A stretch of 64,000 nt of DNA from Lytechinus pictus. Taxonomy: Eukaryota. The notes below the pieces were generated by a model that did no database searches, had not been told where the DNA came from, and saw nothing but the letters and a program-made list of their open reading frames with translations. Numbering within the stretch: position 1 is the first letter of the stretch; each line of letters starts with the position of its first letter. The stretch is taken from NCBI RefSeq assembly GCF_037042905.1, contig NC_087251.1, positions 37,016,001 to 37,080,000 on the forward strand. Reading direction: 5' to 3'. The position numbers and the translations under genes are program-made. Positions 1-61,976 of this stretch are shown piece by piece.

Positions 1-217
1 ATAAGTACTAAAGTAATGAGGGAGTTGTACGTGTGTGACATCACAGATCTTGGTCGCATTGCCAATGGGAGGATCTACATGGCATTAGTGATCTCAATAT
101 TCAAATGTCCATAACTTTCTTATTATTCAATCAATCTTCCTCAAACTTTAAACAATATGTTTCTTTGATTTTTCTCTTTGATATGGATTCAGCTGGTTTC
201 AAGGGTTTCATTCTCCT
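1..217. mobile_element. Right part of a Kolobok-like non-autonomous DNA transposon (full copy at 49882-50463)
   Basis: Near-identical to 50249-50463; ends GTTTCATTCTCCT followed by TTAA (218-221). Confidence 0.7.
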
Positions 218-10159: not shown

Positions 10160-12115
10160 TCAGTCGTTCCCCTCTTGGATGTTCAGGCCATGAGGTTGGG
10201 TGGTGCGAAGTCGTCTCATCCAGAGCTTCTCCCTGCTAGTACGGACTGAGTCAGGACGGGTACCTAAAGATTCGATGCCCTGTAGCATCATGTCAGTGAT
10301 GGAGTGGTTGGGGAGGTTAAAATGGCGGCCAACTGGAGTGTCCAGCTTTGCTGTGTTGACGGTGGATCTGTGCCCGTAGAATCGTTTCTTGAGTGTGGTC
10401 TTGGTTTCCCCTATGTATTGTACCCTACAAACTCTGCAAGTGATGAGATATACAACATTAGTGGTAGTGCATGTGATATTGCCCTTGATTTGGTGAGACA
10501 GGCTGGTAGAGTTGCTGGTGAAAGTATCGCCCTCGTGAAGGTGTATTTCACATATGATGCACCTGTTGCTGGTGCATTTGAAGGTGCCATGCTGTATGGG
10601 AGAAGAATGGTTAGTGAGGGAGGGCACTTCAGCACGAACAATGAGGTCCCTGAGATTCGGTGGGCGTCGGTATGCTAGAAGGGGAGTATCGGGAACGGCC
10701 TGTTGGAGACGATCAGAAGTGTGTAAAATGTGGTGGTTATCAAACAGGATTTTGCGGAGAGGGGGTAGATTGGGATGGAAGGTGGTCACAAGCGGTATTC
10801 TGTCGGTGGTCTCCTTGTCACTTTTTGGTTTGAGAACTTCAGATCTGGGGAGAGAACGAACTTTGTTAATTGCCAGTTGGACTGCCCTGGCCCCGTGGCC
10901 CCTAGCACAGAGATGTTTCTGCAGATTCCTGGCATGGAAGGAAAAATCAGGGTCCTCGGAGCAGATACGGCGAAGTCTGAGGGCTTGACTGTAAGCGATG
11001 CCGGTTTTGCAGTGACGGGGGTGGCAGCTGGATGAGTGGAGGTACTGGTGGGTATCTGTGGGTTTAGAGTATAGGGTAGTGGTGATACCATTAGACTTTT
11101 TCTGGACTGTAACATCAAGGAAGTGGGTTTCCTGTTGGGAGAAATCAGAAGTGAATTGGATGGTCCTGTGGAAGGAATTGATGTGGTCAATGAATGTATG
11201 GAGGCTGTCTTCATCCCTGGTCCAGATGAAGAAAATGTCGTCTATGTAACGCCACCAAATCCATGGGCGACAGGGGGCTGAATCTAACATCTGCTGTTCC
11301 AGCTTCGTCATGAAGAGACAGGCGAATGAAGGAGCCATCCGGGTGCCCATTGCTGTACCGAATATCTGTAGGTAGTGCTTGCCCATGAATGTGAAGTTGT
11401 TTTTTGTTAGTACATGAGACATCAGAGATTTGATATCGGATATGGGGGGACTGGAATGGCCACTGGCGGCCAAGGCTTCACATGATGCTTGGATACCTTC
11501 GTCGTGGGGAATGCTGGTGTACAGTGAAGAAACATCGAAAGTGCCGATGATCGCAGTCTCGGGTATCTGGTCCTTGATGTCATTTAGTTTCCTGAGAAAG
11601 TCTGGAGTGTCGTGGATGTAAGAGGGTGCACGTGAGACAAGGGGCTTAATGTGGTAATCAACAAAAAGGGAGATGTTCTCTGTTGAGGATCCATTTCCTG
11701 AGAGGATGGGTCGACCGGGGTTGCCAGGTTTGTGGATCTTCGGGAGGAGATAGAAGCGGGCAGGTTTAGCATTAGTAGGGGAGAGAAATTTGTGGGCCTT
11801 CTCAGAGAGATACTCGCGTTCTTTCATGTCATTCAGTGTCGATTGGATCTGTAGGGAGAAATTACAAGTAGGGTCAGAATCGAGGAGTGCATAGTGAGAT
11901 CGATTATTGAGATGTTTCATGGCTTCATCGATGTACTGCTGGCGGTCCATAACAACGACGGCTGATCCTTTGTCTGCAGGCTTGATGATGATGTCGGACC
12001 TGTTTTTGAGTGATGAGAGAGCCTGGCGTTCTTCTCGAGGAAGGTTGTCATGTGCTCTGGTGTCGAGGGTATCTGTGGAGCGAACTTGGGATGAGACAGC
12101 TTGGATGTAAGCCTC
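10160..12115 (-). CDS. Penelope-like reverse transcriptase + GIY-YIG endonuclease (Neptune-like), 5'-truncated; first Met at 11950
   Basis: The frame is open from ~12115 and includes the IKPADKG motif. RT motifs FYLLPKIHK, FDVSSLYTSIP, GTAMG and RYIDD are present, then a Cys linker (CTSNRCIIC) and the GIY-YIG domain NVVYLITCRVCRVQYIGET...RFYGH...GLN. Confidence 0.93.
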   Translation of the reverse strand, partial: EAYIQAVSSQVRSTDTLDTRAHDNLPREERQALSSLKNRSDIIIKPADKGSAVVVMDRQQYIDEAMKHLNNRSHYALLDSDPTCNFSLQIQSTLNDMKEREYLSEKAHKFLSPTNAKPARFYLLPKIHKPGNPGRPILSGNGSSTENISLFVDYHIKPLVSRAPSYIHDTPDFLRKLNDIKDQIPETAIIGTFDVSSLYTSIPHDEGIQASCEALAASGHSSPPISDIKSLMSHVLTKNNFTFMGKHYLQIFGTAMGTRMAPSFACLFMTKLEQQMLDSAPCRPWIWWRYIDDIFFIWTRDEDSLHTFIDHINSFHRTIQFTSDFSQQETHFLDVTVQKKSNGITTTLYSKPTDTHQYLHSSSCHPRHCKTGIAYSQALRLRRICSEDPDFSFHARNLQKHLCARGHGARAVQLAINKVRSLPRSEVLKPKSDKETTDRIPLVTTFHPNLPPLRKILFDNHHILHTSDRLQQAVPDTPLLAYRRPPNLRDLIVRAEVPSLTNHSSPIQHGTFKCTSNRCIICEIHLHEGDTFTSNSTSLSHQIKGNITCTTTNVVYLITCRVCRVQYIGETKTTLKKRFYGHRSTVNTAKLDTPVGRHFNLPNHSITDMMLQGIESLGTRPDSVRTSREKLWMRRLRTTQPHGLNIQEGND

Positions 12116-24733: not shown

Positions 24734-24941
24734 ATGTTGTACGTGATTCTGAACGTGTTGCTCCTTGGAGCCTTGGCAAGTAGCGAGTACTCAGGAATGT
24801 CTCTGAGGGATCGAATTGCCTTGAGGAACCTCCTCATGAACAGCAACTACTACGACTTTCCTCTAGCCCCGTCACAACGCGACCTAGAGAACACAGCCAT
24901 CAACTCAAAGGTCGTCATTCCACCTTTGACATTCATCCAAG
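24734..24941 (+). CDS. SCG5: 7B2 coding exon 1 (signal peptide; MLYVILNVLLLGALASSEYSG...PPLTFIQ)
   Basis: Acceptor tttttataG at 24723, ATG at 24734, phase-1 donor at 24942. Confidence 0.88.
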
Positions 24942-27900
24942 GTATACCACTTAGCATTATTTAATCTTTATTCTCTTGGTATATGTCTCGCCTGCATGCA
25001 GAGCGAGAGTATAGGTGCCGCTTTTCCGATGGCGGCCGTCGTCGTCAACATTGAAATCTTAACCTAAGGTTAAGTTTTTGAAATGTTAAAGTATATAGAC
25101 CTAGTTCATAAAAATTGGGTATAAGGGTAACATCCTGCCTGAGTTTCAGGTTACATGACCAAGGTTAAAGGTCATTCGGGGTCAATGAACTTAGACCATG
25201 TTGGGGGGAATCAACATCGAAATCTTAATCTAACGTTAAGTTTTTGAAATGTCATAACTTAAAAATGATATGAACCTAGTTTATGAAACTTGGGTATAAG
25301 GGTAATCAAGTATTATTGAACACCCTGCATGAGTTTCAGGTAACATGATCATTGTCAAATGTAATTTAGGGTCAATGAACTTTGGCCATGTCAGAGTTAT
25401 TTGTTGAATTGCCATAATAACTTTGAAAGTTCATGGATCTAGTTCATGAAACTTGGACATAAAAGAAATCAATATTAATGAGCATTACATGCAAGTTTCA
25501 GGTCACATGATCAAGGTCAAAGGTCATCTAGAGGCAATGAACTTAGACTATGTTAGGTGACTCAAAACAAAATTTTAACTAATGTTAATCTTTTTAATGT
25601 CAAAACTTTGCAAGTATGATATGGATCTAGTTCATAAAACGTAAGTGTAACCAAGTATCAGTGAATATCCTGTATGAGTTTCAGGTCACATGACCAAGGT
25701 CAAAGATCATTTAAGGTCAATGAACTTTAGCCATCATAATTTGAAAGTTTATGGATATAATGTAGTTCATGAAATGTGGACATATGGGTAATCACGTATC
25801 ACTGATCATCTTGCACAATTATTAGGTTACATGATCAAGGTCTAACATCATTTAGGGTCAATGAACATAGCATTTTATTATCATATGAATGGTGTTTTTG
25901 TGAATAATTATTATATATAGTTGTTTTCAAAATCAGCACTGCTGCTAATATTGAATCGCGTAATGCAGGCGAGACTGCCAGAGGCACTCCACACGTTTAA
26001 ATTCATATTACTCCAATGAAACAAGTACTTTTATCTCGTGGATAATGATAATTGCTTCCTTATCATCATTTAATATGGATAGATTATTATGATTGTGTTC
26101 AAGGCAACGGTGTGTCTGAATTATTATGAGTTAACCATCTTTACTTCATATTGCACATTCAACATGTTCTAATTCACATAATGGTAATCTTTTTTATTTT
26201 TTAAATTCTAAATGCTCACTGTTCTGTTAGATGTCTGTCTGTCACCTTTCTATTCAGACACCACTGGGTGTACTCAGTAAGCGTCTGTAAGGAAAGACTA
26301 TGTGTGAGTGTGGGTGTCTGTGTATCTGTATCGCTCTCTCTGTGACTGTATGTGGTTATCTATATGTATCTATCTCTCTGAGTGTGTGAGGGATGTCTGG
26401 GTGGATGTGTGGTGGATATGTGGGTGAATGTGGGTGTCTATGTGTCCTTGTAACTGTCTGTGAGTGTGTGAGGGTAAGTGTAGGGGTACGTGTGGGTTTC
26501 TTGTATTTGTATCTCTCTGTCTGTGAGGGTATGTATGTGTGGAGGTGCAGTGGCCACCAAAAATTTCACTACCAAAAAAAATTGAAGAAAAAAAAGAAAA
26601 GGAAAGGGAAACAGTGAAATATGATAGAATTTTCAGATTGAGACAGTCTACATAATAGCTTTAATCCGCACTTCTTTCTTTATTTATTTTCCTATTAAGC
26701 GCATAGAGACGCCCATGAGCAGTGATATGCGCTATACAAGCAACGTCGTATTATACTGGTTGTTATTATTATTATTATTAAATCTACCACAAATTCAATT
26801 TTGTTGTTTAAAAGGTCATATGTTTGCTCGCTCGCTAGCTTGCAGCTATTTGGACATTTGCCCAATACGCCATGTCCGGCTCCCTCAAAGTCCATTACAC
26901 CATTATACCTTTTTACATCGATCGGCATGTGATCCTTTTTACACCTTTTTACCCTCTTTACTATTCAGGAGGCACCGGTGAGGGCGTCCAACACCTCGGC
27001 GCTGAAGGAGACATCCCCAACAGACAGAACCCGATCCCTGAGGTATCCAGTCAGTATGACAATCCTCCCAACCCTTGCCCTCCCGGTGGAGATCTCGCAG
27101 GTATTTATCAATTCAATATTTTTTTTCCTAAATACGGTATTAGGTACAGGCCTTAGTACCATCACCTGCCATATACAGTGCTGGAATAAATCTATTAAAG
27201 TCCATGGCTCCCGATGTCCTCAGAATTGGCCTTGATGGCCTTCCACATATACGTACGTAGACTTTTACAGGCCAAAAGTGCATGCCATTTTTGCATGTGG
27301 CCTGCAGTAATCCAGTGCATGAGTCACATTTAAAAGTACATTAATTTTTATGTGATGAAAATAAACTTATATGTTACTGCTGTAAATACGTTAGACTGTC
27401 ATTATTATTTTCATCTTTTGGACAATGCGCTCATGTCAAGGGAATGAAGTTTATTAATAATATTAAATTCACTACACTAGTGAGCACCGCATTCCGTTTC
27501 CTTTATGCACTTCGGTGCCCTTTCTAAAAAAAAATAGCATTACCCCTTTTAATTCTTCATTCGGGCTCTGCATATTATCGTTGATTTTTGGTAAATTAAC
27601 GTTCTTTGTTGCTGCGTTTTGTCCTGAATCATCCAAATGTGGACGTAGGATGTCGGTATAAAGGGCGGTTGCTTCTGTCTACTTTTTCAAAATCATGTAC
27701 CTTTAAGTCAAATAAAAACTCAATTCATTACGTGCCATAAAATAGGAGGATATAGGCCTAAGCGAGGGTATACAATATTCGTGTTTTGGTTCTATACGTG
27801 TAATGTATTCACATCTACTATAGATGTTTAGATTGCTATTGATACAAGTGGATAAATTCCCGGACAGGGTTAATGTTACTTTATTTTATTTCATGAAAGC

Positions 27901-30900
27901 AAACGGTGAATCAATCACGAGTAAAACGAATATCAAGTCCGATTCCTCATAACATAGACATGTGCGTGTTTACTTACGTTCAAACAGAGCGTGGGCCCAG
28001 TCTTTTTTTTTCTTTCTTTTTTTAGATGGTAGGGTGAGGCCGAAATCTCCTATCCCTCCCCTTACCCTTTTGAATTTGATTGTGGATAAATTACACTGTA
28101 GATTTACAATTTAACCCCAGAGACGATACCATGATTAGCATACCTTATAATAAAACATTTGTTGTGACATTGTTCTACATTGATAACACGGAAAAGGGTA
28201 TATGGTGTAACAAATTAATACATGGGTATTGTTTTGAGTCATATTTTCTCCATTTTCAGGAAAGAAACCGGTGGAGTCTAAGGTTCATGATCTGATCTGT
28301 GCTTGCGAGGAGGGGTGGGATCTCAAAGAACGCCGAGATTGTTCTGCAGGTATAAACAAAACATTACTCGATATAATATCTTAGGAGGTGTTGCAAGAAA
28401 ATGTTTGCAATCAATCTGCAAATATTCTGTTCCAATTTTACAATTGATAGATCAATTCTAACTGTGGCAAAATCAGATTACAAGAAGCAGATTAAAAATC
28501 AATCGCAATTTCGCAATTAATTTCAAAACTTATGATTGATTTAGGGACCGAAAATAGACTTACAATTGATCACAAATTTCTTGCAACGCCCCATTAGTCA
28601 GATTTGATTTACCTCATATACACCAACGAAACCGACTCCCAATCGATCGACGATCTGCCATTCGATATAACGTTATAGCTTTGATCTGTTTGGGGTCGGT
28701 TCCCGCTGAAGACAGAATGAGCCAACATTAATTAATATCTAAAGGAAAGAAAAAGTTTTAAAAAAATAAAGTTTCAGAAAAGGGCATTCTAAGGTCGGGT
28801 ACACTTTATCAGACGCTTTTTGTCTCGCCTGCATAGCAGAGCGAGACTATATGCGCCGCTTTTCCGACGGCGACGGCGGCGGCGACGTCGTCAACATAGA
28901 AATCTTAACCAAGGTTAAGTTTTTGAAAGGTCATCATAACTTAGAAAGTTATGGACCTAGTTCATGAAACTTGGACATAAGGGTAATCAAATATTACTGA
29001 ACATCCTGCCTGAGTTTCAGGTCACATGACCAAGGTCAAAGGTCATTTAAGGTCAATGAACTTAGACCATGTTGGGGGAATCAATATCAAAATCTTAACC
29101 AAGGTTAAGTTTTTTAAATGTTGTCATAACTTAAAAAGTTTATGGACCTAGTTCATAAAACTTAGACATAAGGGTAATAGTGTCTCACCATATATCCTGC
29201 TTGAGTTTCACGTCACATGATTAATGTCAAAGGTCACTTAGGGTCAACAAACTTTGGCCATGTTGGGGTTATTTGAGGAATTGTCATTATAACTTTACAA
29301 TTTTAAGGATCTAGTTCATGACACTTGGACTTAAGAGCAACCATGTATCCCTGAATATCATGTGCGAGTGTCAGGTCACATGACCAAGATCAAAGGTCAC
29401 TTAGGGTCAACAAACTTTGGCCATATTGGGGGTATATGAGGAATAGTCATCATAACTTTGAAATTTTATGGATCTAGTTCATGACACTTGGACATAAGAG
29501 CAATCAAGTATCCTTGAATATCCTGTGCTAATTTCAGGTCACATGACCAAGGTTAAAGGTCATTTAGGGTCAACAAACTTTGGTAATTTTGGGGGTATTT
29601 GTGGAATTGTCATCATAACTTTAAAAGTCTATGGATTTAGTTCATGAAACTTGGACATAAGAGCAGCAGTGTATCCCTGAATACCCTGTGTGTGTTTCAG
29701 GAACATGGCCAAGGTCAAAGGTCATTTAAAGGTCAATTAACTCTGGCCGTGTTGGGAGTATGTGTTGAATTGGCATCATAACTTAGGAAGTTTATGGTAC
29801 TTGCTCATGAAACATCGACATAAGGGTAATCAAGTATGAATGATAGTTTTGCACAATCCTTAGGTCACATGATCATGGTCAAAGTTCATTTTGGGTCAAT
29901 GGACATAACATTTTATTATCTTATTAATGTTTTCTTCTGTGAATAATTATTCATTAGCTGTTTTTTCAAAGGAAGCACTGCTGCTATATCGAATTGCGTA
30001 ATGCAGGCGAGACTGCCAGAGGCATTCCACTTGTTTAATATTCCCAGTCAAATATAAGCATGATCGGGTCCAATAATTGACCCGATGTTTAGTGAAAACT
30101 GTAAGCCAAATATACGAAGGGTCGGGATAAGTGGACTCGACCTTTCGATAATTTGGGAGACCCTTTTCTCGAATGGTCGGGTTTAAAAGATTGCCCGGCC
30201 TGACACGATATACCGATGTGACGGAACAAGCCGATATGATTTCTTTCACTAAAAAAAAAATGATCTCAACTTGAACTAAAGATAGACTTCGTATTTAATA
30301 ATGTATGGAAAACATACAGCTTTAATCGATTTACTGTAGGGAGGACGTTTCTTAAACAAAATCTCGAAAAGTAAAAAAAATAAATAAAAAAGTTTCAATT
30401 CATCGATAGATTTTAGTTTTAAATGTTATGCATCATTCAAAAATTCAAGAATAAAATCCTTCACATAATATTAGGGTGTAATACCGAAACTCTTGAATAA
30501 TTTTTGGACGCATTTGAGACCTATATGGAAGAGTATGAATAAGTTTTCGGAAATGTAAGAGATAAAACAGTTATGTTACTAATCTAACGTAAATAACAAT
30601 TAATTAATTTTGTTCACTGATTTGGTTTCTTGATTATACTAGCTCCAAAGTGTTGCATGCCAAACATGCCGAATGATTCGGAGTTTGTGAACCAATATCA
30701 GCTGACTGAACGGGCCATAAAGAACCAACAACTCTACTCTCAAACAAGGGTATGTGATTATAAAGATGATGACGATGATGATGATAACCATAGGCGGCGG
30801 AAGCGGGGGGACGGGGGGTCCTGTCCCCCCTGAATTTGAGGTGGGGACGCCCCCCTACAATTTCTGTTGATTTTTTTTTTGGCTTGTCAATTTTGTTTCC

Positions 30901-33900
30901 TGCGTCCCCACCAAATTCAGGTGGACCCCCCTAAAATTGTTGTGGCCCCCCCCCTAAATTTGTTTTGCTTGTCCAATTTTTATACTGTGTCCATCCCTAA
31001 ATTTCAGGTGGACCCCCCCCTAATTTTTTTGGCTTCCGCCGCCAATGATGATAACAGTGTCGAGGTGAAGACAATGATAACTGATGATAACTAACAACAA
31101 TGATCATGATGCTATCGATAAGGACGATTATGAACATAATATTAACTGTGATATTTTAGATGAATGTCTTGATAATTTGTAGATGAATAACAACACGAAA
31201 AAGTAAATTCCCTTAAATCAAAATGGAAAAAAATTCCCAACGAAAATGTGTTGATTAAAACGGTGCGGAATTACTTGATCGTCTAATTTCATTTTTTGGC
31301 AGTCGTTATTAGATAAATTTTGCTAAGAAACCTTAGCTGAGAAGTTACGCCATTTTGATCTGAGAACTTTCATTTTGTGTTTAAACATGAAAGGTTTATT
31401 TAGTACATATTATATCTATAGAAATAAAGCCCTTTATAAAATGGATCCTAATCAAATGATTTGCTAAGATCTGTCGCGTAAGTTGGCGTAACCGATCATT
31501 TATTTTAGCGAAAATGAAAAGTTGCTTATGACCGGTCATCGTTTTGGGCTGAAAATTGTTTATCATATTACAAGGAGAGTTATGAATTACAATTTACTAA
31601 CTAACTTATAAAACAAATAAAACACATAATTTTGTTTGGGAATAAAAATATTTAAACAAATTTGTTACCTTTGAAACAGTCTAACTCGGTTTTGCCTTGG
31701 GCGTGTTAGAACAGGTCTCGAAGTACCTCGTTAATTTACTTTGTCTATTTCGTACTAATGCCCTCGATGATGTGTATTATTAATTTATTATTCCATCTTT
31801 GTTTGTCCGAAAGTTATCTCAATGTCGTCATACCCCAATCTTTATCCGGGCATTAGTTGATTTATCTAGCTAATCGGATGGTCCTTCACGTCATGACAGA
31901 TTCAAAGTGTAATTAAACCGGCAAAAAGACATTGATTTTCGATGTTTTTTTTTCATTTTTCAGAATAAGTATTCTACGGGAGTTAAGCGCTCAGACCATA
32001 TGGCTAAGAAGAGTCCAGTATACAAGAGGGTAGGTATAATTCTGTCAGATAGTATCAAAGATGTTATCAATGGACTTTTATAGTAATCAAAATTTACCAT
32101 CATTAATATTATGATTTGTTAAGTATAGGTAGGTATAATTCCTTCAGATTATTATCAAAGGTGTTATCAATAGACTGCAAGTAATATATTATGATCATTA
32201 TCATTATTATGATTTGTTAGGTATAGGTATATATGTATAATTCCTTCATATACTATCAAAGATGTTATAAATAGACTATTAGTAATCAAATATTATCATC
32301 ATTATCATTATTATTATGTTACTATCACGATCGATATTACTACTATAGCTGTTATTGTTGTGTTTGTTATTAATTATTATTAAAATTAAAGCTATTCAAT
32401 CACTATTATTAATATTGTAATTACAATTAGTAGTAGTAGTAAATAATAATAATAATAATACATGAAATTTGTATAGCGCACTTTCCATCTTGATTAGATG
32501 CTCAAGGCGCTTCAGAGCAGAACAACAAAAACTATATACATATAATACATGTCTGAACAATAAGTCAATGTCTATTAAAAACACTCTTATACAGGTATGT
32601 AAAAGTGTTTTATGATCCTAATTATCACATTTACTACTACTACTATCATCATCATTACTATTAGGAGTGGGCTATATACATGGGTCAAAAATACTTTTTT
32701 GTCAATTTAATATGGCAACAGTTTTTAACTATTCCTTGTAATGTATCTCAACATGAAATGACAATATTTTTTTTCTCGGGTCCGAGAAAAAAGTGTGCCG
32801 GGCCAAAATCCAAAATGGCCGCCAAACCCCCCCCCCCAAATCACAGTTTTGGCCACAACTTCTTTATTTGGTGGTCGTTTTCTCTGGTTTTGGTGTCTAT
32901 TCATATGTTTTTGGGGGCAGGCAATCTGTTTTACCTGAAATTAATACTTAAAAAACATTATTTGTAGTGTTAAAGGGTTATTTTACCTAAATTTACACAT
33001 TTTTAGACCCATTTTTTGTATGAGGCGCCGAATGTACCAATATTATATAGAACAATTATTTGTTATATAATCATTATTTATTAAATAATAACTATTATTT
33101 ATATATAATTTACATTTTATTTGTAAATAACTACTATTATATAAAATATCATTTCTAATTATTTATATATAATTCCAAGTAATACTTCATTATTTGTAAA
33201 TAATAATAGTTCGACATTCCATTATTTATAAATAATGATTATTTGTTTTTCATTATTTATAAATAATGATTATTTGTTTTTCATTATTTACAAATAATGA
33301 TCTTTTGTTTTTCATTATTTATAAATAATGATAATTTGTTTTTCATTATTTATAAATAATGATTATTTGTTTTTCATTATTTACAAATAATGATTATTTG
33401 TTTTTCATTATTTATAAATAATGATTATTTGTTTTTCATTATTTATAAATAATGATTATTTGTTTTTCATTATTTATAAATAATGATAATTTGTTTTTCA
33501 TTATTTACAAATAATTTGTTGAGTTTTCCATTATTTATAAATAATGATTATTTGTTTTTCATTATTTATAAATAATGATTATTTGTTTTTCATTATTTAC
33601 AAATAATGATTATTTGTTTTTCATTATTTATAAATAATGATTATTTGTTTTTCATTATTTATAAATAATTTGTTGAGTTTTCCATTATTTATAAATAATG
33701 ATTATTTGTTAAATAATGAAAACGTCTACTTCATTATTTATAAATAATTTTTTCGAGTGCACCATTATTCTCATTATTTATAAATAATCATTATTTAATG
33801 TTCGAGTTTTCCATTATTTATAAATAAAGATTATTTGTTAAATAATGAAATATCTACTTCATTATTTATAAATAATAATTTTGTTTCAATATCCCATTAT

Positions 33901-36900
33901 TTATAAATAATCATTATTTATAAACAATTTTTACAGTTTGCCATTATATACAAATAATCATTATTTATATACAAATAACCATTATTTATTAAATAATGCC
34001 ATTATTTATTAAATAATGCCATTATTTATTAAATAATGCCATTATTTATTAAATAATGCCATTATTTATTAAATAATGCCATTATTTATTAAATAATGGA
34101 AAACTCGCTATAACATGCAAATGTGGGACCGCCCATGATATGAATATTCATGATGCGATTTCCTTTTTCGTGATTTTTCTTCACAAATTTTTGTCCATTT
34201 CCTCTTCATAATGACATTTCTTGAAGCAATTTTCTAGGGATATGGTCTGATTGTAATATTCTTCATTTTCTATAAACTTCGTCTTCGTAGAAATATCAAA
34301 AAGTGTAATTTTATACGATTTTTCCTACAGTTCACAATCCCCATAGGCGCGCGTGTACGGTAGGGACAACCGGTGAATCGACGGAGTGCTCTTCATCGAA
34401 ATACTACGTTGGTTGGTCCCCGGAAGTGGCGGGCGGAATTTAGCCCGAATCCTCGATGGAAGTCGATCAAGTGCATATGAGCTGAGAGAGTGAAATATCA
34501 GTGTACTTGTACAGGCCCTTCTACTTTTTATAAATATTTCTTGTTGCTTTTTTTGTTAAGTTAATTTTTCCTGGTGTAATGATAAGTTTCAGTTCTAATA
34601 ATGCACTTCAAATACATTTTGGAGTGTCTGTTTGAGGCGTTTGGGGCGATTTCACCCTGGCCCCAAAATGCTCGCAACGACAATACGGGGGCATGATGAC
34701 CCCTAATTTTTTAAAAACTTATTTTTCTATTGAAAATTATCACAAAATTCACCAAAAGTGTGCACGAAAGCCTTCGTATTTGACTTTTAAAACTCCAAAA
34801 AGTGCCCAAATGACAAGCTTGGTCGCTTCGCTGTGTCGCTTTCAACTTGAGAACGTTTACGCGTCTGCTTCCCCCCCCCCCCCCCCCTCCTCCGAAAGAA
34901 ATTCTGTATACGGCCATGCTCTAAAGAGCCTGGCACATTGATTTATGTATACTTTCATTTTCATTATTTTTATCTCATTATCAATATGGCCTTACGCAGA
35001 ATTTTTTCCAGGGGGGCCGGGGCCGGAGCATATGACGCGCGTAAACTTTCTCAAAAAAATCTAGTTGAAAGCGAGACAGCCACGGGACCAAGCCCAAATG
35101 ACAAGCTTATGGTCGCTTCGCTGTCTCGATCGCTTTCAACTTGAGAACGTTTACGCGCGTCTGCCCCCACCCCCCGAAAGAAATTCTGTGAACGGCCATG
35201 CTCAAGAGAGCATATGGCACATTGATTTATATGTACTTTTCATTTTCATTATTTTTATCACATTATCATCATGGCCTTACACAGAATTTTTACCGGGGGG
35301 GGGGGGGAGCAGCTAGGACGCGCATAAAGTTTCTCAAAAAAATCTTGAAAGCGAGACAGCGACGCGACCAAGCTCAAATGACAAGCTTGGTCGCTTCGCT
35401 TTTTCAAGATTTTTATGAGAAAGTTTACGCGCGTCCTGCTCCCCCCACCCCCCCCCCCGGAAAAAATTCTGCGTAAGGCCATGATGATAATGAGATAAAA
35501 ATAATGAAAATGAAGTATACATAAATCAATGTGCCATATGCTCTTTTGAGCATGGCCGTTCACAGAATTTCTTTCGGGGGGTGGGGGCAGACGCGCGTAA
35601 ACGTTCTCAAGTTGAAAGCGATCGAGACAGCGAAGCGACCATAAGCTTGTCATTTGGGCTTGGTCCCGTGGCTGTCTCGCTTTCAACTAGATTTTTTTGA
35701 GAAAGTTTACGCGCGTCCTGCTCCCCCCACCCCCCCCCCCCCCGGAAAAAATTCTGCGTAAGGCCATGATGATAATGAGATAAAAATAATGAAAATGAAG
35801 TATACATAAATCAATGTGCCATATGCTCTTTTGAGCATGGCCGTTCACAGAATTTCTTTCGGGGGGTGGGGGCAGACGCGCGTAAACGTTCTCAAGTTGA
35901 AAGCGAGACAGCGAAGCGACCAATTAAGCTTGTCATTTGGGCTTGGTCCCGTGGCTGTCTCGCTTTCAAGATTTTTTTGAGAAAGTTTACGCGCGTCATG
36001 CTCCAGCCCCGGCCCCCCGGGAAAAAATTCTGCGTAAGGCCATATTGATAATGAGATAAAAATAATGAAAATGAAAGTATACATAAATCAATGTGCCAGG
36101 CTCTTTAGAGCATGGCCGTATACAGAATTTCTTTCGGAGGAGGGGGGGGGGGGAAGCAGACGCGTAAACGTTCTCAAGTTGAAAGCGACACAGCGAAGCG
36201 ACCAAGCTTGTCATTTGGGCACTTTTTGGAGTTTTAAAAGTGAAATACGAAGGCTTTCGTGCACACTTTTGGTGAATTTTGTGATAATTTTCAATAGAAA
36301 AATAAGTTTTTAAAAAATTAGGGGTCATCATGCCCCCGTATTGTCGTTGCGAGCATTTTGGGGCCAGGGTGAAATCGCCCCAAACGCCTCAAACAGACAC
36401 TCCAAAATGTATTTGAAGTGCATTATTAGAACTGAAACTTATCATTACACCAGGAAAAATTAACTTAACAAAAAAAGCAACAAGAAATATTTATAAAAAG
36501 TAGAAGGGCCTGTACAAGTACACTGATATTTCACTCTCTCAGCTCATATGCACTTGATCGACTTCCATCGAGGATTCGGGCTAAATTCCGCCCGCCACTT
36601 CCAGGGACCAACCAACGTAGTATTTCGATGAAGAGCACTCCGTCGATTCACCGGTTGTCCCTACCGTACACGCGCGCCTATGGGGATTGTGAACTGTAGG
36701 AAAAATCGTATAAAATTACACTTTTTGATATTTCTACGAAGACGAAGTTTATAGAAAATGAAGAATATTACAATCAGACCATATCCCTAGAAAATTGCTT
36801 CAAGAAATGTCATTATGAAGAGGAAATGGACAAAAATTTGTGAAGAAAAATCACGAAAAAGGAAATCGCATCATGAATATTCATATCATGGGCGGTCCCA

Positions 36901-39900
36901 CATTTGCATGTTATAGCGAGTTTTCCATTATTTAATAAATAATGGCATTATTTAATAAATAATGGCATTATTTAATAAATAATGGCATTATTTAATAAAT
37001 AATGGTTATTTGTATATAAATAATGATTATTTGTATATAATGGCAAACTGTAAAAATTGTTTATAAATAATGATTATTTATAAATAATGGGATATTGAAA
37101 CAAAATTATTATTTATAAATAATGAAGTAGATATTTCATTATTTAACAAATAATCTTTATTTATAGATAATGGAAAACTCGAACATTAAATAATGATTAT
37201 TTATAAATAATGAGAATAATGGTGCACTCGAAAAAATTATTTATAAATAATGAAGTAGACGTTTTCATTATTTAACAAATAATCATTATTTATAAATAAT
37301 GGAAAACTCAACAAATTATTTATAAATAATGAAAAACAAATAATCATTATTTATAAATAATGAAAAACAAATAATCATTATTTGTAAATAATGAAAAACA
37401 AATTATCATTATTTATAAATAATGAAAAACAAATAATCATTATTTATAAATAATGAAAAACAAATAATCATTATTTATAAATAATGAAAAACAAATAATC
37501 ATTATTTGTAAATAATGAAAAACAAATAATCATTATTTATAAATAATGAAAAACAAATTATCATTATTTATAAATAATGAAAAACAAAAGATCATTATTT
37601 GTAAATAATGAAAAACAAATAATCATTATTTATAAATAATGAAAAACAAATAATCATTATTTATAAATAATGGAATGTCGAACTATTATTATTTACAAAT
37701 AATGAAGTATTACTTGGAATTGTATATAAATAATTAGAAATGATATTTTATATAATAGTAGTTATTTACAAATAAAATGTAAATTATATATAAATAATAG
37801 TTATTATTTAATAAATAATGATTATATAACAAATAATTGTTCTATATAATATTGGTACATTCGGCGCCTCATATTTTTCAGCCAAAAGTTAGGTTTCACT
37901 GTCTTGTGAATCTTGGATATTGGACGATACGAGTTCCACAATAGCAAGTAGTTTCATATAGTTATATTGCTCTTATTCCTCTACTTTGGGTTCTACGGAT
38001 ATTTTCGAAATATATCTTATTAAATACAGAAATGTTATTTATCCATAGGGGCCATACAGTATATGCAATGTATTTTACATACTGCACTGCATACATGTAT
38101 ATCCATACATTGACCACCATGGCAAGGTCTACAGGTAGATCTATATAAACTATAGTGTCATAGAAATGACCTCTTGAATTAGATGCCTCAGAAATTGAAG
38201 ATACTGCATGTTTTGTCTCAGAAATTGAAGACATGTTTTGTCAAATATGCTCATTCAGGGGGCGGAGAGGGGAAAACATCATTGACAATGGAAATATAGT
38301 CAACCCCACATTATGGCATTTACACTGGTTATTCTGCTACCATTATGGTAACTTTGCCATTCAATTGTAAATTGCATGGAATCCTTGATTCTGATTGGCC
38401 GTTGATCAGCGTTACCATGGTAGTTAACTGACAACATAAACATTGGGTTAGACACAACCAGGTAAAAACAAGCCTCCAAATGAAGAAGATACATGTATGG
38501 CTAAACAGATGTGCGTACACGTACATGATGTTTACACTGTATGTGCAATTTATGTTTATCATCGGGTTACATATTTCCATCATGTATATCAGGTAACAAG
38601 CAATCAAAGTCACAAGTCACAATCTAATTCTAAACCTCATGAGCTCACTTCTATGACACTAGTTTATATACAGGACTTGTTATATGTCATGGTGGTCAAT
38701 GCATGGATATATGCAGTGTAGTATGTACAGTACATTGTATACCATACAGCCCCTATGGAAAAATGACATTTTCTTTTATTTGATAAGATATATTTCGCAA
38801 ATATCCGTCAACCCCAATTTAAAGATATAAAAGCTCTATATCTATATGAAGCGTCTTACTACTGGTCAACTGGTATCGTCTAAAGAACCATGACACAATG
38901 AAACCTAATTTTTGGCTGAAAAAGCTACGGTCTAAAAATTAGTAAATTTAAGTAAAATCACATTATAACTCTACAAATAATGGTTTAAAAGTACTAATTT
39001 TAGGAAAAACAAATTGCATGCCCCCAAAACATATGAATAGACACCAAAACCAGAGAAAAGGACCACCAAATAAAGAAGTTGTGGCCAAAACTGTAATTTT
39101 GGGGGTTTTGGCGGCCATTTTGGATTTTGGCCCGGCACACTTTTTCTCGGACCCGAGACAAAAAATATTATCATTTCATGTTGAGATAAGGTAAAAGAAA
39201 TACAAAAAAATTGTTGGCACAGTAAAACCCAAAAACGCCCATTTATAGCCCACTCTTTACTATCAATGTTATAATAATAATAATAATATAGAGTATTTAT
39301 ATTGCGCACATATCCACCTTGTTAGGTGCTCAAGGCGCTCCTATATTATTATTATTCTCATCATCATCATCACTATTTTGGAAACTTGCCCCCTAAATTA
39401 ATAAGCTGAGTTCACAATTTATTTGTACATTTTGTGCAGAAACATTTTAAGTAACACCGGAGAAGTGTTTGCAAGACACGACTGATTTCCTTCAGTGAGT
39501 TCATCAACATTTCTGTCCGACCAACATGTCAGACCTGGCAACTTTCCTTGAGTTTGCTTTGCCGAAAAGCACTGTTACTATGGTAACTGTCGGATAAAAC
39601 AGCACTTGTCGGATAAAACGTCTGACAGGTCTTTCATGAAACGCTCCCTATATGGGTTTCAATCTGTCTTTTCATTTCTTTTCACAGAGCATCAATTCTT
39701 ATCTTCCTGGCAATATGGTGCGACACGTGTCTAAGAAATCTGCCTATCCCATTAGGGTAAGATCATAATGAAATAAGAGATTGGCCATTACATCGGATGA
39801 AATATTGGTTCTAATATTGGAAAGGGGGATTTCCAGCGATGTCTTTGTTTAATGACTTTGTTTTCTACGTATGTAACATATCGGATGATGTCTTTATAGA

Positions 39901-42051
39901 TATTGCCTTTTCCCTCAAGCATAAAGGAAACAATGGAGCAGTATTCAAAATCAAGGTCATTGACCTATTTTGTTCTCTATATCTCTCCAGTTTGGTTTTG
40001 TAAAATTGATTTGTGTATTTCTTTTCATTTATCTATCTACCTAATATTTTTATTATGATCATTATTTTCTGTTCATTTATTATTATAAGTGTTTATTCTA
40101 ATCATCATCATAACTATTAATTTTATTATTATTATTACTATTATCATTATTATAATTTCATTCATTCATTTATTTATTTGTCCTTTTTATTGTAATCAAA
40201 GGGGTACTCCAGGCTGAAAATCATGGCTTGAACATATGAAGTAAAATCAAACAAACAAAATACCGAAAAAAATTATCAAAATCAGATAAGGAATGAAAAA
40301 GTTATGACAATGAAAATCTTTGCATTATTAACAGGTCTTTGCATTCGTCATGAATATTCGATGAGCTAGCTCATGCTGTCATATACTCACTTATTATATG
40401 CTTTATTATATGAAATTATCTTTTTTATTGAATCTTGCCAACAATAATGAACACGAGTTTGGATTGACAACCGACTTAACCCATATTTCATTGCTGCCAC
40501 TTATTTTGTTACAAGGTAGACATATCACAGGTATGAAAATATCAAACAATTATGATTTCATGTACTATAACATGACTTCGTTAATTGTTATCAGAATGTG
40601 ATGAAATTTTCAGCGTCTTACTTGGTGAAATTTAACTCCATTTATTCATATATCATAATTATTTTCAGCCCGGAGTGCCCCTCTAAGAGACTCTTGCAGG
40701 GAACCCGTGAATAAACATTTTTTTAGACCCGCCCCCATCCCCTCGCCCCTCGGTACGGAAAATCTCGTTAAGGCATTCAAGAGCTAAAACGCACTAATTG
40801 CATGGACCAAATTGTCACTATATTTTATTTGTTGTAAACCACATTATTTCAAACCACATTATTTCGCCTACATTCGATTTCAATACAGTATATCTGAAAA
40901 ACACATTTTTATGCCATCATCAAAGGAAAGTTCAAGATTCAGGCCCCTATTAACAGATCTGCATGGAAATTACTAAATAAATAAATACAAATACAGGTGC
41001 ATAGCATGTACAATCTTTTTCAATAGCGCCACCTTTTGACAAAATATCAGTAACCTCATCTGGGGGCCGGAGGCGAAGAAAGACTTGTGTTCAATCCTTT
41101 AGTATACACTTTTAGAAATTCCTATGTAAAATTTTAACCAGTATGAGAGTAATAATGTGTCCAATCAATTTTGGGCAGTAGTTTACACAATGCGGGAAGC
41201 ATATTGTCAAGTCAAAGGTTAAAAAGTAGCATGGGCAAAATTTTCATCACACTGGATAAATAAAAATACCCCAAAGAAATGCCCAATGTTGGTTGGACAC
41301 ATTGGAAATCTTTCTGAGACAGGTCCTTGATTTTTCTTTGCTTTATGTGTTAACAGGAATGAGACATACTTGAGTTTTAATTTAAGCTAATTGTCATTGC
41401 AAATTTACATTGAGATAAGCAAAATTCTTTACACCCTTATTCAACTGGGGGGGGGGGGGGTCAGTTTGACCCCGCCCCCCCCCCCCACGTCAAATTCGTC
41501 ACTAAGCCGCCGCGCGAAATTTTTTGACCGCGCCACTCGCCGACTTTTTAAAGTCTTGTGCATCTTTTGAGACCAAGCTTGCGACGCCCGGATAGCGACT
41601 TCCCCCCAAACCAAATACCTATGGCAAAGATTTAGAGCAATCCGATTGGTTGAAGAAACAGCTACGGGTCACGCCCATGGACAATAACAACGCCTACAAT
41701 TGGAAATCATCACGTTACTCGACAAAAAAAAGGCTTTACAATACATCACGTGACAAATAAATTGAACTAAATCAGGTATATCGGATACATTTCCCATCAT
41801 GATGATCGAGCACGCCCAGTTATAAATTAAAATATTCCACTTGCATTAGAAGTGACAACAGCATGACTTGATAGAATATTAATCTTTCAACTTCACAAAT
41901 AGGCCTACATGTATATAATTTGTTATTATATCACTTTTATTTTCTTCCCCCGCAGACCTACGTTAACCCATACACCTACAACCAGCCGCATTTGAATTCT
42001 GTGGTGGCAAAGAAGGCCCCTCTTTATTCTGGCGCCAAGCTCAACATGTGA
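24734..42051 (+). CDS. SCG5: Neuroendocrine protein 7B2 (secretogranin V) homologue, 7 coding exons, 255 aa: join(24734..24941,26969..27100,28260..28349,30643..30749,31964..32029,39688..39756,41956..42051)
   Basis: All introns are GT-AG and phase-consistent (768 nt in total). It has a signal peptide MLYVILNVLLLGALAS and the 7B2 signatures GGTGEGVQHLGAEGDIPN, PPNPCP and VNPY...LNSVVAKK. Confidence 0.92.
24984..25997 (+). mobile_element. Helentron-associated (HINE/DINE-1/pearl-like) element with internal tandem repeats, copy A
   Basis: SubTIR TGTCTCGCCTGCAT / ATGCAGGCGAGAC, short GC microsatellite, ~170-190-bp core repeats (caggtcacatgaccaaggtcaaaggtcatt), T-rich ends. Confidence 0.75.
26969..27100 (+). 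CDS. SCG5: 7B2 coding exon 2 (GGTGEGVQHLGAEGDIPNRQNPIPEVSSQYDNPPNPCPPGGDLA)
   Basis: Pyrimidine tract + CAG, donor CAG|GTATTT; contains the hallmark PPNPCP. Confidence 0.95.
28260..28349 (+). CDS. SCG5: 7B2 coding exon 3, Cys-rich (GKKPVESKVHDLICACEEGWDLKERRDCSA)
   Basis: ttttctccattttcAG acceptor, CAG|GTATAA donor; 90 nt, open, symmetric phase 1-1. Confidence 0.75.
28821..30036 (+). mobile_element. HINE-like element, copy B
   Basis: Same terminal blocks and core repeats as copy A. Confidence 0.78.
30643..30749 (+). CDS. SCG5: 7B2 coding exon 4 (APKCCMPNMPNDSEFVNQYQLTERAIKNQQLYSQTR)
   Basis: TAG acceptor, AGG|GTATGT donor; resembles the vertebrate CLENTPDTAEFSREFQ segment. Confidence 0.88.
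30789..31047. mobile_element. hAT-like MITE (relative at 52573-52893)
   Basis: CATAGGCGGCGGAAGC...GCTTCCGCCGCCAATG, 8-bp TSD ATGATAAC. Confidence 0.8.
31964..32029 (+). CDS. SCG5: 7B2 coding exon 5 (NKYSTGVKRSDHMAKKSPVYKR)
   Basis: Strong acceptor tttcatttttcAG, donor AGG|GTAGGT; 66 nt, phase 0-0. Confidence 0.82.
32662..39256. mobile_element. ~1.7-kb non-autonomous element with long imperfect TIRs, split by the giant palindrome
   Basis: GAGTGGGCTATA / TATAGCCCACTC ends. 32776-33010 plus 37874-38150 mirror 38650-39160. TTACTAT occurs on both flanks. Confidence 0.75.
33019..37873. mobile_element. 4.85-kb palindromic foldback element
   Basis: TATGAGGCGCCGAATGTACC / GGTACATTCGGCGCCTCATA. The mirrored arms contain 30-bp and 20-bp AT-rich tandem repeats, a ~700-bp unique block and ~285-bp units meeting near 35380. 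Confidence 0.9.
39688..39756 (+). CDS. SCG5: 7B2 coding exon 6 (SINSYLPGNMVRHVSKKSAYPIR)
   Basis: Strong acceptor tttcttttcacAG, donor AGG|GTAAGA; 69 nt, phase 0-0; CT-peptide-like. Confidence 0.87.
40200..40682. mobile_element. Kolobok-like MITE (diverged)
   Basis: AGGGGTACTCCAGGCTGAAAA / TTTTCAGCCCGGAGTGCCCCT. Confidence 0.55.
41956..42051 (+). CDS. SCG5: 7B2 last coding exon (TYVNPYTYNQPHLNSVVAKKAPLYSGAKLNM*)
   Basis: Acceptor tttcttcccccgcAG; VNPY..VVAKK motif; TGA at 42049-42051. Confidence 0.92.
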   Translation, partial: TYVNPYTYNQPHLNSVVAKKAPLYSGAKLNM

Positions 42052-49881: not shown

Positions 49882-50463
49882 AGGAGAATGAAACTCTTGG
49901 AGCAAGTTAGCTTTTGTGAAAGCAGAAAAATCAAAGAATAAGATCAACAAAAGTTTGACTAAAAAAGGACTAGCAATAGAAGAGTTGAGCATTTGAATGT
50001 CGAGATCACTAATGCTATGGAGATCCTCCTTTTGGCAATGCGACCAAGATCTATGATGTCACAGATGAACAACTCTCCCCTTTTGGACACTGAAAATATA
50101 CCCCAAAACATCTCTTTTTGCTCATTCTAATCATTATGACAAACGATTCATCAATGATATAATGTTGTGAAACCTCTGTACTTGTCCTCTCATAAAGAGA
50201 ATACCTCACCTTGTGATAGACTCTATAAAAGTGAGAATATAAGTGAAATAAGTACTAAAGTAATGAGGGAGTTGTACGTGTGTGACATCACAGATCTTGG
50301 TCACATTGCCAATGGGAGGATCTACATGGCATTAGTGATCTCAATATTCAAATGCTCATAACTTTCTTATTATTCATTCAATCTTCCTCAAACTTTCAAC
50401 AATATGTTTCTTTGATTTTTCTCTTTGATATGGATTCAGCTGGTTTCAAGGGTTTCATTCTCC
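49882..50463. mobile_element. Kolobok-like MITE, full copy
   Basis: TTAA|AGGAGAATGAAAC...GTTTCATTCTCC|TTAA. Confidence 0.75.
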
Positions 50464-50743
50464 TTAAGTTATTGTAACTTAATTTTCTTGAGTAAAAATG
50501 GATGCAAAGAAAAAAAAGTAAATTTTACTTAAAACTGCCAAACTCATAAATACTGGAAAAAATTTAAGTAATTTTTTGCCACAATTTTATACAGTCATTT
50601 CAACAATTTTTTTTTTACAGTGTCGATTCAAATGAAATATATTATTCATATCCTAAATGAATACAATACCTAAATCAAGTGTACAACTACAAACATGACA
50701 TAATACATTAAAAAAAAAACATGAATAACTATATCGCATTTGT

Positions 50744-51903
50744 ATGCTTAATAGACTTACTGATTATTTTTCGGACAACAATTTATTTGATCCCTTTCAA
50801 TCTGCATATCGTCCCAAACATAGTGTGGAAACTCTCCTGGTCAATGTGTCCAACTCTATTCTTCAGGGTATGGACAAAGGAAATATCTCAGCCATGTTCT
50901 TACTCGACTTGTCTTCTGCTTTCGATACCGTCAACCATACTGTTCTACTTAATACACTCAGTTCATTTGGTGTTAGGGGTCAGGCATATGAATGGTTTCA
51001 GTCATATCTTTCCTGTCACTCGCAGATTGTCTGTATTAACGACTGCAAATCTAGTAGTATGCCTCTCTCTCACGGTGTACCGCAGGGTTCTGTGGGCGGG
51101 CCCACTTTGTTTTTGATTTACCTGATTAGTTTGGGACATATCTTACAATGCCATAACATCAATTATCATATCTATGCCGATGACATCCAACTCTATCTCT
51201 CCTTCAAACCAAACCAGGCTGATGCAACAAATGCAATCGCCCTTCTTGAGAATTGTTTAGCTGACATTCACTCCTGGCTGGATAGTCATTCATTGAAATT
51301 GAATCCGTCCAAAACTGAGTTTCTTTTATTTGGTTCAAGGGCTCAACTTAGTAAGGTCAAGTTGTCATCGGTCTCTTTTTCGGGATGTACCATTAATGTG
51401 TCCCAGACGTGTCGTAACCTAGGGGTCATGTTTGATTGTGGAATGTCTATGTCAAATCAAATAACCACCATTTGTAGGTCTGTAAGGTATCAGCTACGTA
51501 ATATTGGGTTCATCAGGAAATATTTGTCAAAATCTGCTACTGAAAAATTGGTCCATGCTCTGATTTCTTCACGACTTGATTTCGGGAATGCCTTACTCTA
51601 CAATTTACACAACACCTAAACTCCAAAAGCTCCAGAACGCTGCAGCACGTTTGGTCACCTATCTAACAAACATGTTCATATCACACCCATTCTGAAATCT
51701 CTTCATTGGTTAAAGGTTAACGATCGCATCATCTTCAAAATCCTTCTCCTTGTATTCCATGCAATTAATGGCTCTGCTCCACAGTACAATATTAATCTAA
51801 TCAGCAAATACACTCCAGTCAGGTCCCTACGTTCATCCAACTCTGGTTCCCTAGTTATTCCTAAATCCGTTAAGACATGGGGGGTTCGGGCTATTGCTCA
51901 CGC
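50744..51903 (+). pseudogene. 5'-truncated L2/CR1-type LINE reverse transcriptase, left part (open 50744-51619, then frameshifted)
   Basis: Motifs QSAYRPKHSVET, LLDLSSAFDTVNH, GVPQGS, YADDIQLY, LKLNPSKTE and SRLDFGN; degenerate LHWL..RI.FKILLL downstream. Confidence 0.9.
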
Positions 51904-53115
51904 GGTTACAGCCCGATAGACCGCGGGTCCGATAGACCGCGGGTCCGATAGCCCGCGGGTCCGATAGTCCGCGGGTCCGATAGACCGCGGGTCCGATAGA
52001 CCGCGGGTCCGATAGACCGCGGGTCCGATAGTCCGCGGGTCCGATAGACCGCGGGTCCGATAGCCCGCGGTGTGTGTAAAATTATGGTCAGGATATAGTG
52101 AGATCCAATGCCATCAAGAGGTCAAAAGGCCAATGATAAGGCGAGTCCATTGGGGTTCTATAACGATGACCCAAAGGACAATCGCCCCCTGACATCTACT
52201 TCAAGGAAAATATTATCCCCATATTTTATCGTCAGGGACTGTTACCTCCCCCCCGGAAATTTACCCTCTAGACGCCATACGGAGCCATCGACTTGACGAC
52301 ATGGCGAGATACTTTATCTTGCAATGTCGACTAAATAATGGCGCGATACGTTATCCTGCCAAGTCAGTCCACTTATAAAAAGTTATATGTCAACATGGCG
52401 AGATATTTTATCTTGCCAAGTCGACTTAAATAATTTACATGTCAACATAGCGATATACAGTGTGTATCGGGATTCTCGCCGGGGCTTGTACACTTCATAT
52501 CTCGCCATGTGGACATATCGACTTGACAAGATAGAATATATCGCTATGTCAAAATAATAAGCGTATTAATTACTTAGGCGGCGGAAGCGGGGGGGGGGGA
52601 CCTTTCCTCCTAAATTTGAGGTGGGGGACGGTCCCCCCTAGATTTTTAGTTGAGAACCTTTTTTTTGCTTGTCAATTTGTTTTCTACGTCCCCCCTAAAT
52701 TGAGGTGGACCCCCCCTAAAATCTTTTTGTCCCCCTAATTTTGGTTTATAACCTTTTTTCTTGTCAAACATTTTTCAAAATTGGTGGTCCTTCCTATAAA
52801 TTTTGGTTGATTTGCTTGTCAATTTTTTTACCTGTGTCCATCCCAAAATTTCAGGTGGACCCCCCTAAATTTTTTTGCCTTCCGCCGCCAATGATTAATC
52901 AAGACATGGCAAGATAAAGTACCACGCCATGTCGTCACGTTAATGGCATTTTCAAGGCTCCATACTAGGGGTAATTATCCGGGGTAATTATCTGGAGGGT
53001 AAATTTCCGGGGGGGGGGGGGTATCAGTCCCCGCCGGTAAAAATATGGGGATAATATTTTCCTTGAAGTAGTTGTCAGGGGGTGATTGCCCTAATTGGGT
53101 TATTGTTATAGAACC

Positions 53116-61593: not shown

Positions 61594-61976
61594 GTGCCAT
61601 TTGATGTTATTTGTATTGTGACCTTTGTTGTATTAATATATTAGTTTAATATTCAACTCGTTATGATACATTGGTGTCTATATTTATTAGAGTCTTACAC
61701 CAACGGAGGTCTAACCCTTTTATTTAATAGTGAGCTAGTTACGAATCATCATGATTTTGTTATTCAGATGATATTGTAAAAGAGGAGAGAAAAGTAAAAG
61801 GCAGTTACACCAGTATGTTGTATTAGTATTATGATGATTCGATGTTGCAACCGCAAATTGTAAGCGCGGCATCTAGTGTTGGTCTCTTGGCCATGGTCAT
61901 TAAAGACAGTCACACTTAACCTCAAAGTTGTCTAGTTTATTTACTTACGTCTTATATATTATTAACCCTTGGCGCA

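What the first reader, a model, noticed from the sequence alone, without database searches (positions are those of the whole stretch)
31964..42051. 7B2 with three tandem PC2-inhibitor-like C-terminal peptides, one per exon
Seen: three consecutive small exons encode NKYSTGVKRSDHMAKKS, SINSYLPGNMVRHVSKKS and YVNPYTYNQPHLNSVVAKKA. All begin in phase 0, each follows an AGG|GT junction (Arg or Lys-Arg), and all share N-x-Y...[AS]KK[SA]. Established: vertebrate 7B2 has one CT peptide (SVNPYLQGQRLDNVVAKKS...) whose Lys-Lys pair is needed to inhibit prohormone convertase 2; from memory, some invertebrate 7B2s carry two. Inference: exon duplication built a three-module cassette. The two internal modules are symmetric and could be skipped, tuning convertase inhibition or releasing distinct neuropeptides.
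Basis: partly seen in the sequence, partly recalled or inferred. Interest (0 to 1): 0.72.

Follow-up and report, generated by a model that had tools for sequence, protein, structure and literature searches.

The report
Sea-urchin 7B2 with extra inhibitor-like peptide
This is the known sea-urchin gene for 7B2, the helper protein of a hormone-cutting enzyme, and it carries three tail peptides where the other animals compared carry one or two; the extra one likely came from a duplication in sea urchins and likely adds another brake on the enzyme, which is a modest variation on a known protein.

Summary
Three consecutive exons (31964-32029, 39688-39756, 41956-42051), all starting in phase 0, each encode an N-x-Y...KK module at the end of a seven-exon 7B2/SCG5 gene. 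Its protein is identical to Lytechinus pictus XP_063958675.1. The three modules are the top three of 280 KK windows in the 64 kb.

The interpretation needs correcting. Two modules is the usual invertebrate state: 27 of 49 non-urchin sequences have two and none has three, while 5 of 5 urchin sequences have three. Module 1 is the old first module. Only the middle one is new, and it resembles the second type.

No skipped isoform turned up for urchins, and my RNA test was uninformative. However, RefSeq isoforms of a starfish and a brittle star each lack exactly module 1, so that exon is probably a real cassette exon in echinoderms.

PC2 inhibition by these peptides is untested. The S. purpuratus sequence is already printed, without comment on the triple, in a published alignment. 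Verdict: new variant of a known family, interest 0.33.

The parts
24734..24941 (+). Coding exon 1: ATG, hydrophobic signal-peptide-like start, N-terminal region (ends in phase 1)
   Evidence: lies on spliced contig X15 record 4 with 0 other letters
26969..27100 (+). Exon 2: GGxGEG...PPNPCP core of 7B2 (phase 1-1)
   Evidence: Pfam PF05281 E 0.0027 for this piece; on X15 record 4
28260..28349 (+). Exon 3: cysteine-rich insert shared by echinoderms and Saccoglossus (phase 1-1)
   Evidence: about 91 contig letters between exons 2 and 4 and bin depth 20.5 as expected
30643..30749 (+). Exon 4: CC...EFVNQYQ segment, ends in Arg (AGG|GT, phase 1-0)
   Evidence: on X15 record 4
31964..32029 (+). Exon 5: module 1, the old first-type CT module (N-x-Y..G-x-KR....AKK), phase 0-0; the same segment is absent from isoform X2 in starfish and brittle star
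   Evidence: 22.3 bits first type, 13.3 second type
39688..39756 (+). Exon 6: module 2, the urchin-specific extra CT module, second type, phase 0-0
   Evidence: (11.2 bits second type against 5.8; Diadema 33.7 against 13.0)
41956..42051 (+). Exon 7 coding part: module 3, the terminal second-type CT module, then the stop; the 3' UTR follows
   Evidence: 23.1 bits second type, 18.1 first type

Best explanation
This is the sea-urchin 7B2 (SCG5/SecV) gene, whose tail holds three Lys-Lys modules on three exons; it likely chaperones prohormone convertase 2 through its PPNPCP core and likely restrains the enzyme through the tail modules until they are cut at their basic pairs, and the middle module is likely an urchin-lineage duplicate of the terminal module added to an ancient pair. 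Shown: the gene structure, the three modules, their profile types and their distribution. Inferred from vertebrate 7B2: the chaperone role, the inhibition, and its end by cleavage at Lys-Lys. Inferred from the records: the urchin mRNA normally keeps all three exons, while the module-1 exon is an old cassette exon that some echinoderms skip. The likeliest effect of the third module is one more copy of the pseudo-substrate per precursor, so a longer or tighter hold on PC2. Module 3 is the safest inhibitor. Module 2 is probable in Diadema and doubtful in Lytechinus and Strongylocentrotus, where it has drifted. Module 1 carries an internal Lys-Arg that would shorten it if cut.
For: CDS identical to L. 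pictus XP_063958675.1; the S. purpuratus orthologue is named neuroendocrine protein 7B2; 10 of the 10 best named Atlas clusters are PF05281. Module counts by profile: 5 of 5 urchin sequences have three; of 49 others 27 have two, 13 one, 9 none (all short or truncated), 0 three. The published alignment shows two modules in Saccoglossus, amphioxus, Xenoturbella, Drosophila, Platynereis and Aplysia, one in human and three in S. purpuratus. Module 2 scores as second type, follows the Lys-Arg that is invariant in 10 of 10 aligned ambulacrarian sequences, and is 22 of 23 identical between L. pictus and S. purpuratus. In module 1 the spacing from Asn to Lys-Lys equals that of the vertebrate CT peptide (read). 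Every full-length urchin record carries all three modules, including one from a Logan contig (P0002). Sp-SecV is expressed in larval neurosecretory neurons (PMC6209648). The vertebrate CT peptide inhibits PC2 and is then cut by it (PMC2141705, PMC8401130).
Against: No assay of any urchin peptide was found. The full protein scores below Pfam's cut-off (20.2-24.2 bits against 25). Module 2 of L. pictus is the weakest match (11.2 bits), has NS for NP and SKK for AKK, and is only 10 of 23 identical to Diadema. The hexapeptide ending in Lys-Lys does not inhibit PC2 on its own and about 14 residues are needed (PMC3579927), so the motif alone does not make an inhibitor. Exon shape points the other way on origin: exons 5 and 6 are both phase 0-0, 66 and 69 nt, with KK six codons before the donor, and theirs is the only pair with any DNA likeness (p 0.04). 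No R-x-x-R furin site precedes the modules (read from the sequence), unlike vertebrates. Only four named urchin species in three genera were seen; no cidaroid or irregular urchin.
Confidence: 0.65

Rival explanations
1. Regulated cassette splicing: urchin neurons skip exon 5 and/or exon 6 to make 7B2 forms with one, two or three inhibitory modules.
For: Both exons are phase 0-0 and multiples of three. Acanthaster planci isoform X2 (220 aa against 244) and Amphiura filiformis isoform X2 (227 against 249) each lack exactly the module-1 segment, with borders that match window exon 5. That is 2 of the 4 non-urchin echinoderm species named.
Against: No shortened urchin form: the core-region search gave 3 hits among 69 candidates of 140-448 aa, all full length, and their 5 cluster members are 255-256 aa; two L. 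pictus and four listed Diadema accessions share one protein each. The X15 contig depth in the exon-5 bin (17.9) fits inclusion (14.9 expected). Both exons have the strongest acceptors of the gene by my simple score (9.7 and 11.0). The starfish and brittle-star forms are computed models whose read support I could not see. Nothing supports skipping of exon 6.
Confidence: 0.2
2. The middle module came from tandem duplication of exon 5 (first type) and later converged on the second type.
For: Same phases, nearly the same length, KK six codons before the donor in both, both end in AGG|GT; DNA alignment p 0.04; an internal exon duplicates with both splice sites already in place.
Against: Module 2 lacks the G-x-KR mark of the first type and scores better on the second-type profile in 5 of 5 urchin sequences, by 20 bits in Diadema. 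The DNA likeness is marginal, one of three tests, and partly due to the shared KK codons.
Confidence: 0.25
3. Module 2 is no longer a convertase inhibitor in Lytechinus and Strongylocentrotus; it is cut out between Lys-Arg and Lys-Lys and acts as a secreted peptide, or is an inert processing product.
For: It has drifted from the CT consensus yet is 22-23 of 23 identical across three species; it is flanked by KR and KK; Sp-SecV was first seen in proteomic work (PMC6209648).
Against: In Diadema the same module is a near-canonical CT sequence (33.7 bits). The neighbouring exons are about as conserved (20 of 22, 27 of 31 to S. purpuratus). It has no Gly for amidation. A review notes one early report of neuropeptide-like action of the 7B2 C-terminal peptide and no known receptor (PMC7481362).
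Confidence: 0.2

Closest known systems
S. purpuratus 7B2 / Sp-SecV (XP_799858.1, W4YJ38)
   Same: Orthologue, 87% identical, same three modules; sequence printed in eLife 94948 Supplementary file 7; expression mapped in larvae
   Different: Nothing of substance; the passages and legend I saw do not remark on the triple module
Two-module invertebrate 7B2 (Acanthaster, Apostichopus, Anneissia, Amphiura, Saccoglossus, amphioxus, Xenoturbella, Platynereis, Aplysia, Drosophila)
   Same: PPNPCP core, first-type and terminal second-type KK modules; echinoderms and Saccoglossus also share the cysteine-rich insert. That both Lymnaea peptides inhibit PC2 is recalled (Spijker et al. 1997) and comes from no call
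   Different: A short linker without KK lies where urchins have module 2; starfish and brittle star have modelled isoforms without module 1
Vertebrate 7B2 (SCG5, P05408)
   Same: Signal peptide, GG.EG.QHLG and PPNPCP core, C-terminal N-P-Y...VVAKK module
   Different: One module only, released at a polybasic furin site; two cysteines from the PPNPC motif onward against six; no exon-3 insert

Membership tests
7B2 / secretogranin V (PF05281) | PPNPCP motif in a proline-rich core | tested here: met
   exon 2; P102-C106 invariant in 18 of 18 aligned sequences
7B2 / secretogranin V (PF05281) | Profile match to PF05281 above the curated cut-off | tested here: inconclusive
   E 3e-5 to 5e-4 over profile positions 62-228 but 20.2-24.2 bits against a cut-off of 25 for three urchin orthologues; Atlas feature search gives PF05281 clusters at 0.92-0.94; an urchin profile retrieves named 7B2 proteins
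7B2 / secretogranin V (PF05281) | N-terminal signal peptide | tested here: inconclusive
   hydrophobic start read by eye, predicted helix 2-16; no signal-peptide predictor run; the starfish orthologue is SignalP-positive in a supplement
7B2 / secretogranin V (PF05281) | Neuroendocrine expression | not testable with these tools
   shown for the S. purpuratus orthologue (PMC6209648 passages); the runs laid here had almost no exon reads
7B2 CT inhibitory peptide | N-x-Y...V/M-A-K-K sequence with about 14 residues before the Lys-Lys | tested here: met
   all three modules beat 500 of 500 shuffles on the better-fitting profile; module 2 weakest
7B2 CT inhibitory peptide | Release from the N-terminal domain at a furin-type R-x-x-R site | tested here: not met
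   no R-x-x-R in the tail of P0005 (read); only single Arg, internal KR and the KR between modules 1 and 2
7B2 CT inhibitory peptide | Potent, selective inhibition of PC2 | not testable with these tools
   needs an enzyme assay; none found in the paper searches
Alternatively spliced cassette exon | Frame-preserving exon | tested here: met
   66 and 69 nt, phase 0-0
Alternatively spliced cassette exon | Skipping junctions in transcripts of this species | tested here: inconclusive

The most novel reading that the evidence does not exclude
Echinoderms set the number of PC2-inhibitory modules in 7B2 by splicing: an ancient cassette exon for module 1 is skipped in starfish and brittle stars and perhaps in urchin neurons, and urchins added a further module exon, so that one gene yields 7B2 forms with one to three brakes and cell types could tune when neuropeptide processing starts.
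Probability: 0.2. Interest if true: 0.55.

Novelty: new variant of a known kind. Interest (0 to 1): 0.33.

Why it matters
The role of the 7B2 CT peptide in cells is still unclear, and animals differ in how many copies they carry. Echinoderms offer a natural series in one phylum: one module (skipped isoforms), two (most classes) and three (urchins), with modules on their own exons in urchins. That makes it simple to test whether module number changes the timing or strength of PC2 inhibition. The comparison also suggests that the single vertebrate peptide is what remains of an older pair. It is a lineage-level refinement of a known protein, not a new system.

Tried and rejected
No whole genome is held, so no genome-wide paralogue search was possible.

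RNA: no run on record as RNA was listed as a holder. Three raw RNA runs of the same species label, about 6% of each read, gave depth near 0 on exons 1-5, and nearly all laid reads fell on intronic repeats; no splice joint was among the 15 joints shown (377 not shown). This is no evidence for or against skipping. The lay covered exons 1-5 only. The length of the X15 contig does not tell inclusion from skipping of exon 6: the implied ends, 44474 and 44543, lie either side of an AATAAA at 44502.

Crude [AS]KK counts gave three for two non-urchin proteins (P0036, P0053); both fall to two under the profile count.

Exon 3 looked like half an EGF module by eye. Pfam gave no hit, PDB sequence hits were all E > 0.6, Foldseek gave nothing at E <= 0.001, and VIA-align's best Z was 5.1 on the N-terminal helices, leaving the cysteine region barely tested. 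The idea is unsupported and not excluded.

The AlphaFold model is low-confidence overall (mean pLDDT 57.6, 18 sequences); the tail is mostly under 50, as expected for linear peptides, and was not used further.

No complex with PC2 was predicted, as no PC2 sequence was on hand.

Five short peptide strings gave 0 papers. Earlier scan findings: nothing.

Full report
Observation. A motif scan found the 7B2 core PPNPCP at 27064. A homologue search with that exon returned three sea-urchin proteins, and tblastn of the best one placed seven coding exons between 24734 and 42051. Their joint reading frame equals Lytechinus pictus XP_063958675.1 letter for letter. One contig of run X15 (record 4, 3230 nt, depth 64) carries exons 1, 2 and 4 without introns and with no other letters; about 91 letters between exons 2 and 4 fit exon 3. 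Exon 5 is not among the 8 pieces listed, but its bin depth (17.9) is close to the 14.9 expected if it is included.

Are the modules real? From 29 non-urchin proteins of the profile search and their cluster members I cut 22 first-type and 26 second-type segments and built two HMMs, leaving all urchins out. L. pictus modules 1, 2 and 3 score 22.3/13.3, 5.8/11.2 and 18.1/23.1 bits (first/second type); each beats 500 of 500 KK-fixed shuffles on its better profile. Among 280 open KK windows in the six frames of the window they rank first to third. Pairwise likeness between the modules is weak, so the event is old or module 2 has drifted.

Distribution. Of 58 stored proteins I dropped four N-terminal fragments without the core (P0004, P0007, P0008, P0051). 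Of the other 54, all 5 urchin sequences have three modules; of 49 others 27 have two, 13 have one, 9 have none and 0 have three. Limits: the 49 include near-duplicates and truncated pieces, many supplied the profiles, and only ten clusters were looked up for names. Named two-module cases are Apostichopus, Acanthaster, Anneissia, Amphiura, Saccoglossus, Branchiostoma and Urechis. Supplementary file 7 of PMC11521371 adds Xenoturbella, Drosophila, Platynereis and Aplysia with two and human with one, and prints the S. purpuratus sequence with all three; its legend mentions only PPNPCP. So a pair is the likely bilaterian starting point (inference), vertebrates kept one, and urchins gained one, before the split of Diadema from Lytechinus and Strongylocentrotus.

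Which module is new? Module 1 keeps the G-x-KR mark of first modules from annelids to amphioxus. Module 3 aligns with the terminal module of other echinoderms, including the tail after KK. Module 2 sits where other echinoderms have a short linker, straight after a Lys-Arg invariant in 10 of 10 ambulacrarian sequences, and is second-type, strongly so in Diadema (33.7 against 13.0 bits). Against that, exons 5 and 6 share phase, length and the distance from KK to the donor, so descent from exon 5 stays possible.

Skipping. For urchins the records show none: the core-region search gave 3 hits of 69 candidates, all full length, and their 5 cluster members are 255-256 aa. These are computed RefSeq models; I saw neither their DNA nor their read counts. 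That two classes show the same deletion at borders matching window exon 5 makes a conserved cassette exon likely (inference).

Mechanism. By analogy with vertebrates, the N-terminal part binds and matures proPC2 through the proline-rich core, the CT peptide inhibits PC2, and mature PC2 then cuts it (PMC2141705, PMC8401130, PMC7481362). That the Lys-Lys pair is the needed and cleaved site, and that both Lymnaea peptides inhibit PC2, is recalled and comes from no call. The urchin tail has no R-x-x-R furin site, so it probably stays attached until convertases cut at KR and KK in the granule (inference). About 14 residues are needed for inhibition (PMC3579927); module 1 has an internal KR five residues before its KK, so it could be the weakest or shortest-lived. 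The Arg between modules 2 and 3 is missing in Diadema, so those two may act as one tandem piece. The S. purpuratus orthologue is expressed in apical-organ serotonergic neurons and lateral ganglia (PMC6209648). I put about 0.65 on this reading.

Literature seen. Passages only: PMC3890597 (supplement hits, five files not searched), PMC8557429, PMC6209648 (supplement unreadable), PMC9971248 (supplement rows 55), PMC2141705, PMC13419460, PMC8401130, PMC9759900, PMC3579927, PMC7481362. PMC11521371: passages and Supplementary file 7 whole. The Mbikay 2001 review was not held. Ten searches turned up no paper that describes a three-module 7B2 or skipping of a CT exon, judged from listings and the passages above. 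The library lacks most subscription papers, including the urchin peptidomics studies and the older 7B2 biochemistry, so the triple may be noted there.

Verdict. A real feature of a known gene: one extra CT-like module in sea urchins, on its own exon, plus a probable older cassette exon. New variant of a known kind; interest 0.33. The boldest reading, splice-tuned convertase inhibition, has probability about 0.2 and would merit about 0.55.

Noticed in passing
window 28260-28349: Exon 3 is a symmetric phase 1-1 exon with C-x-C...C that is inserted between PPNPCP and the next cysteine in echinoderms and Saccoglossus only. These proteins lack the C-x-C-D..H..C stretch that protostome-type 7B2 carries after the EF..YQ segment. 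Residues 101-170 are the only part of the model with block pLDDT 70-83, so this may be a small disulfide domain rebuilt in ambulacrarians; it may explain the sub-threshold Pfam score.
   Followed up: partly
P0010 and P0012 (Acanthaster XP_022104832.1, Amphiura XP_072031274.1): RefSeq isoform X2 in each species lacks exactly the first CT module, the counterpart of window exon 31964-32029.
   Followed up: partly
P0014 (WP_411025588.1): A record labelled Salmonella sp. on a 371-nt contig is a two-module 7B2 tail most like the sea-cucumber protein; probably a mislabelled or contaminating sequence.
   Followed up: no
window 33186-33710 and 37274-37706: Intron 5 holds a 31-nt AT-rich tandem array (17 copies) and what looks like its reverse complement (14 copies), with 20-nt and 129-nt arrays likewise paired, around a 285-nt repeat at 35402-36220: a large inverted-repeat element (foldback-like) between module exons 5 and 6.
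   Followed up: no
window 28817-30035 and 24968-26103: Intronic repeat elements attract thousands of RNA reads, mostly on one strand and 90-95% alike, so they come from other copies in the genome.
   Followed up: no
window 50729-51916 (+) and about 10286-11900: Reading frames that look like reverse-transcriptase (LINE-like) remnants, judged by eye from the frame listing.
   Followed up: no
window 1-220 and 50260-50474; 61900-64000: The first 220 bases recur nearly identically near 50.3 kb, and the window ends in a tandem array of about 186 nt.
   Followed up: no
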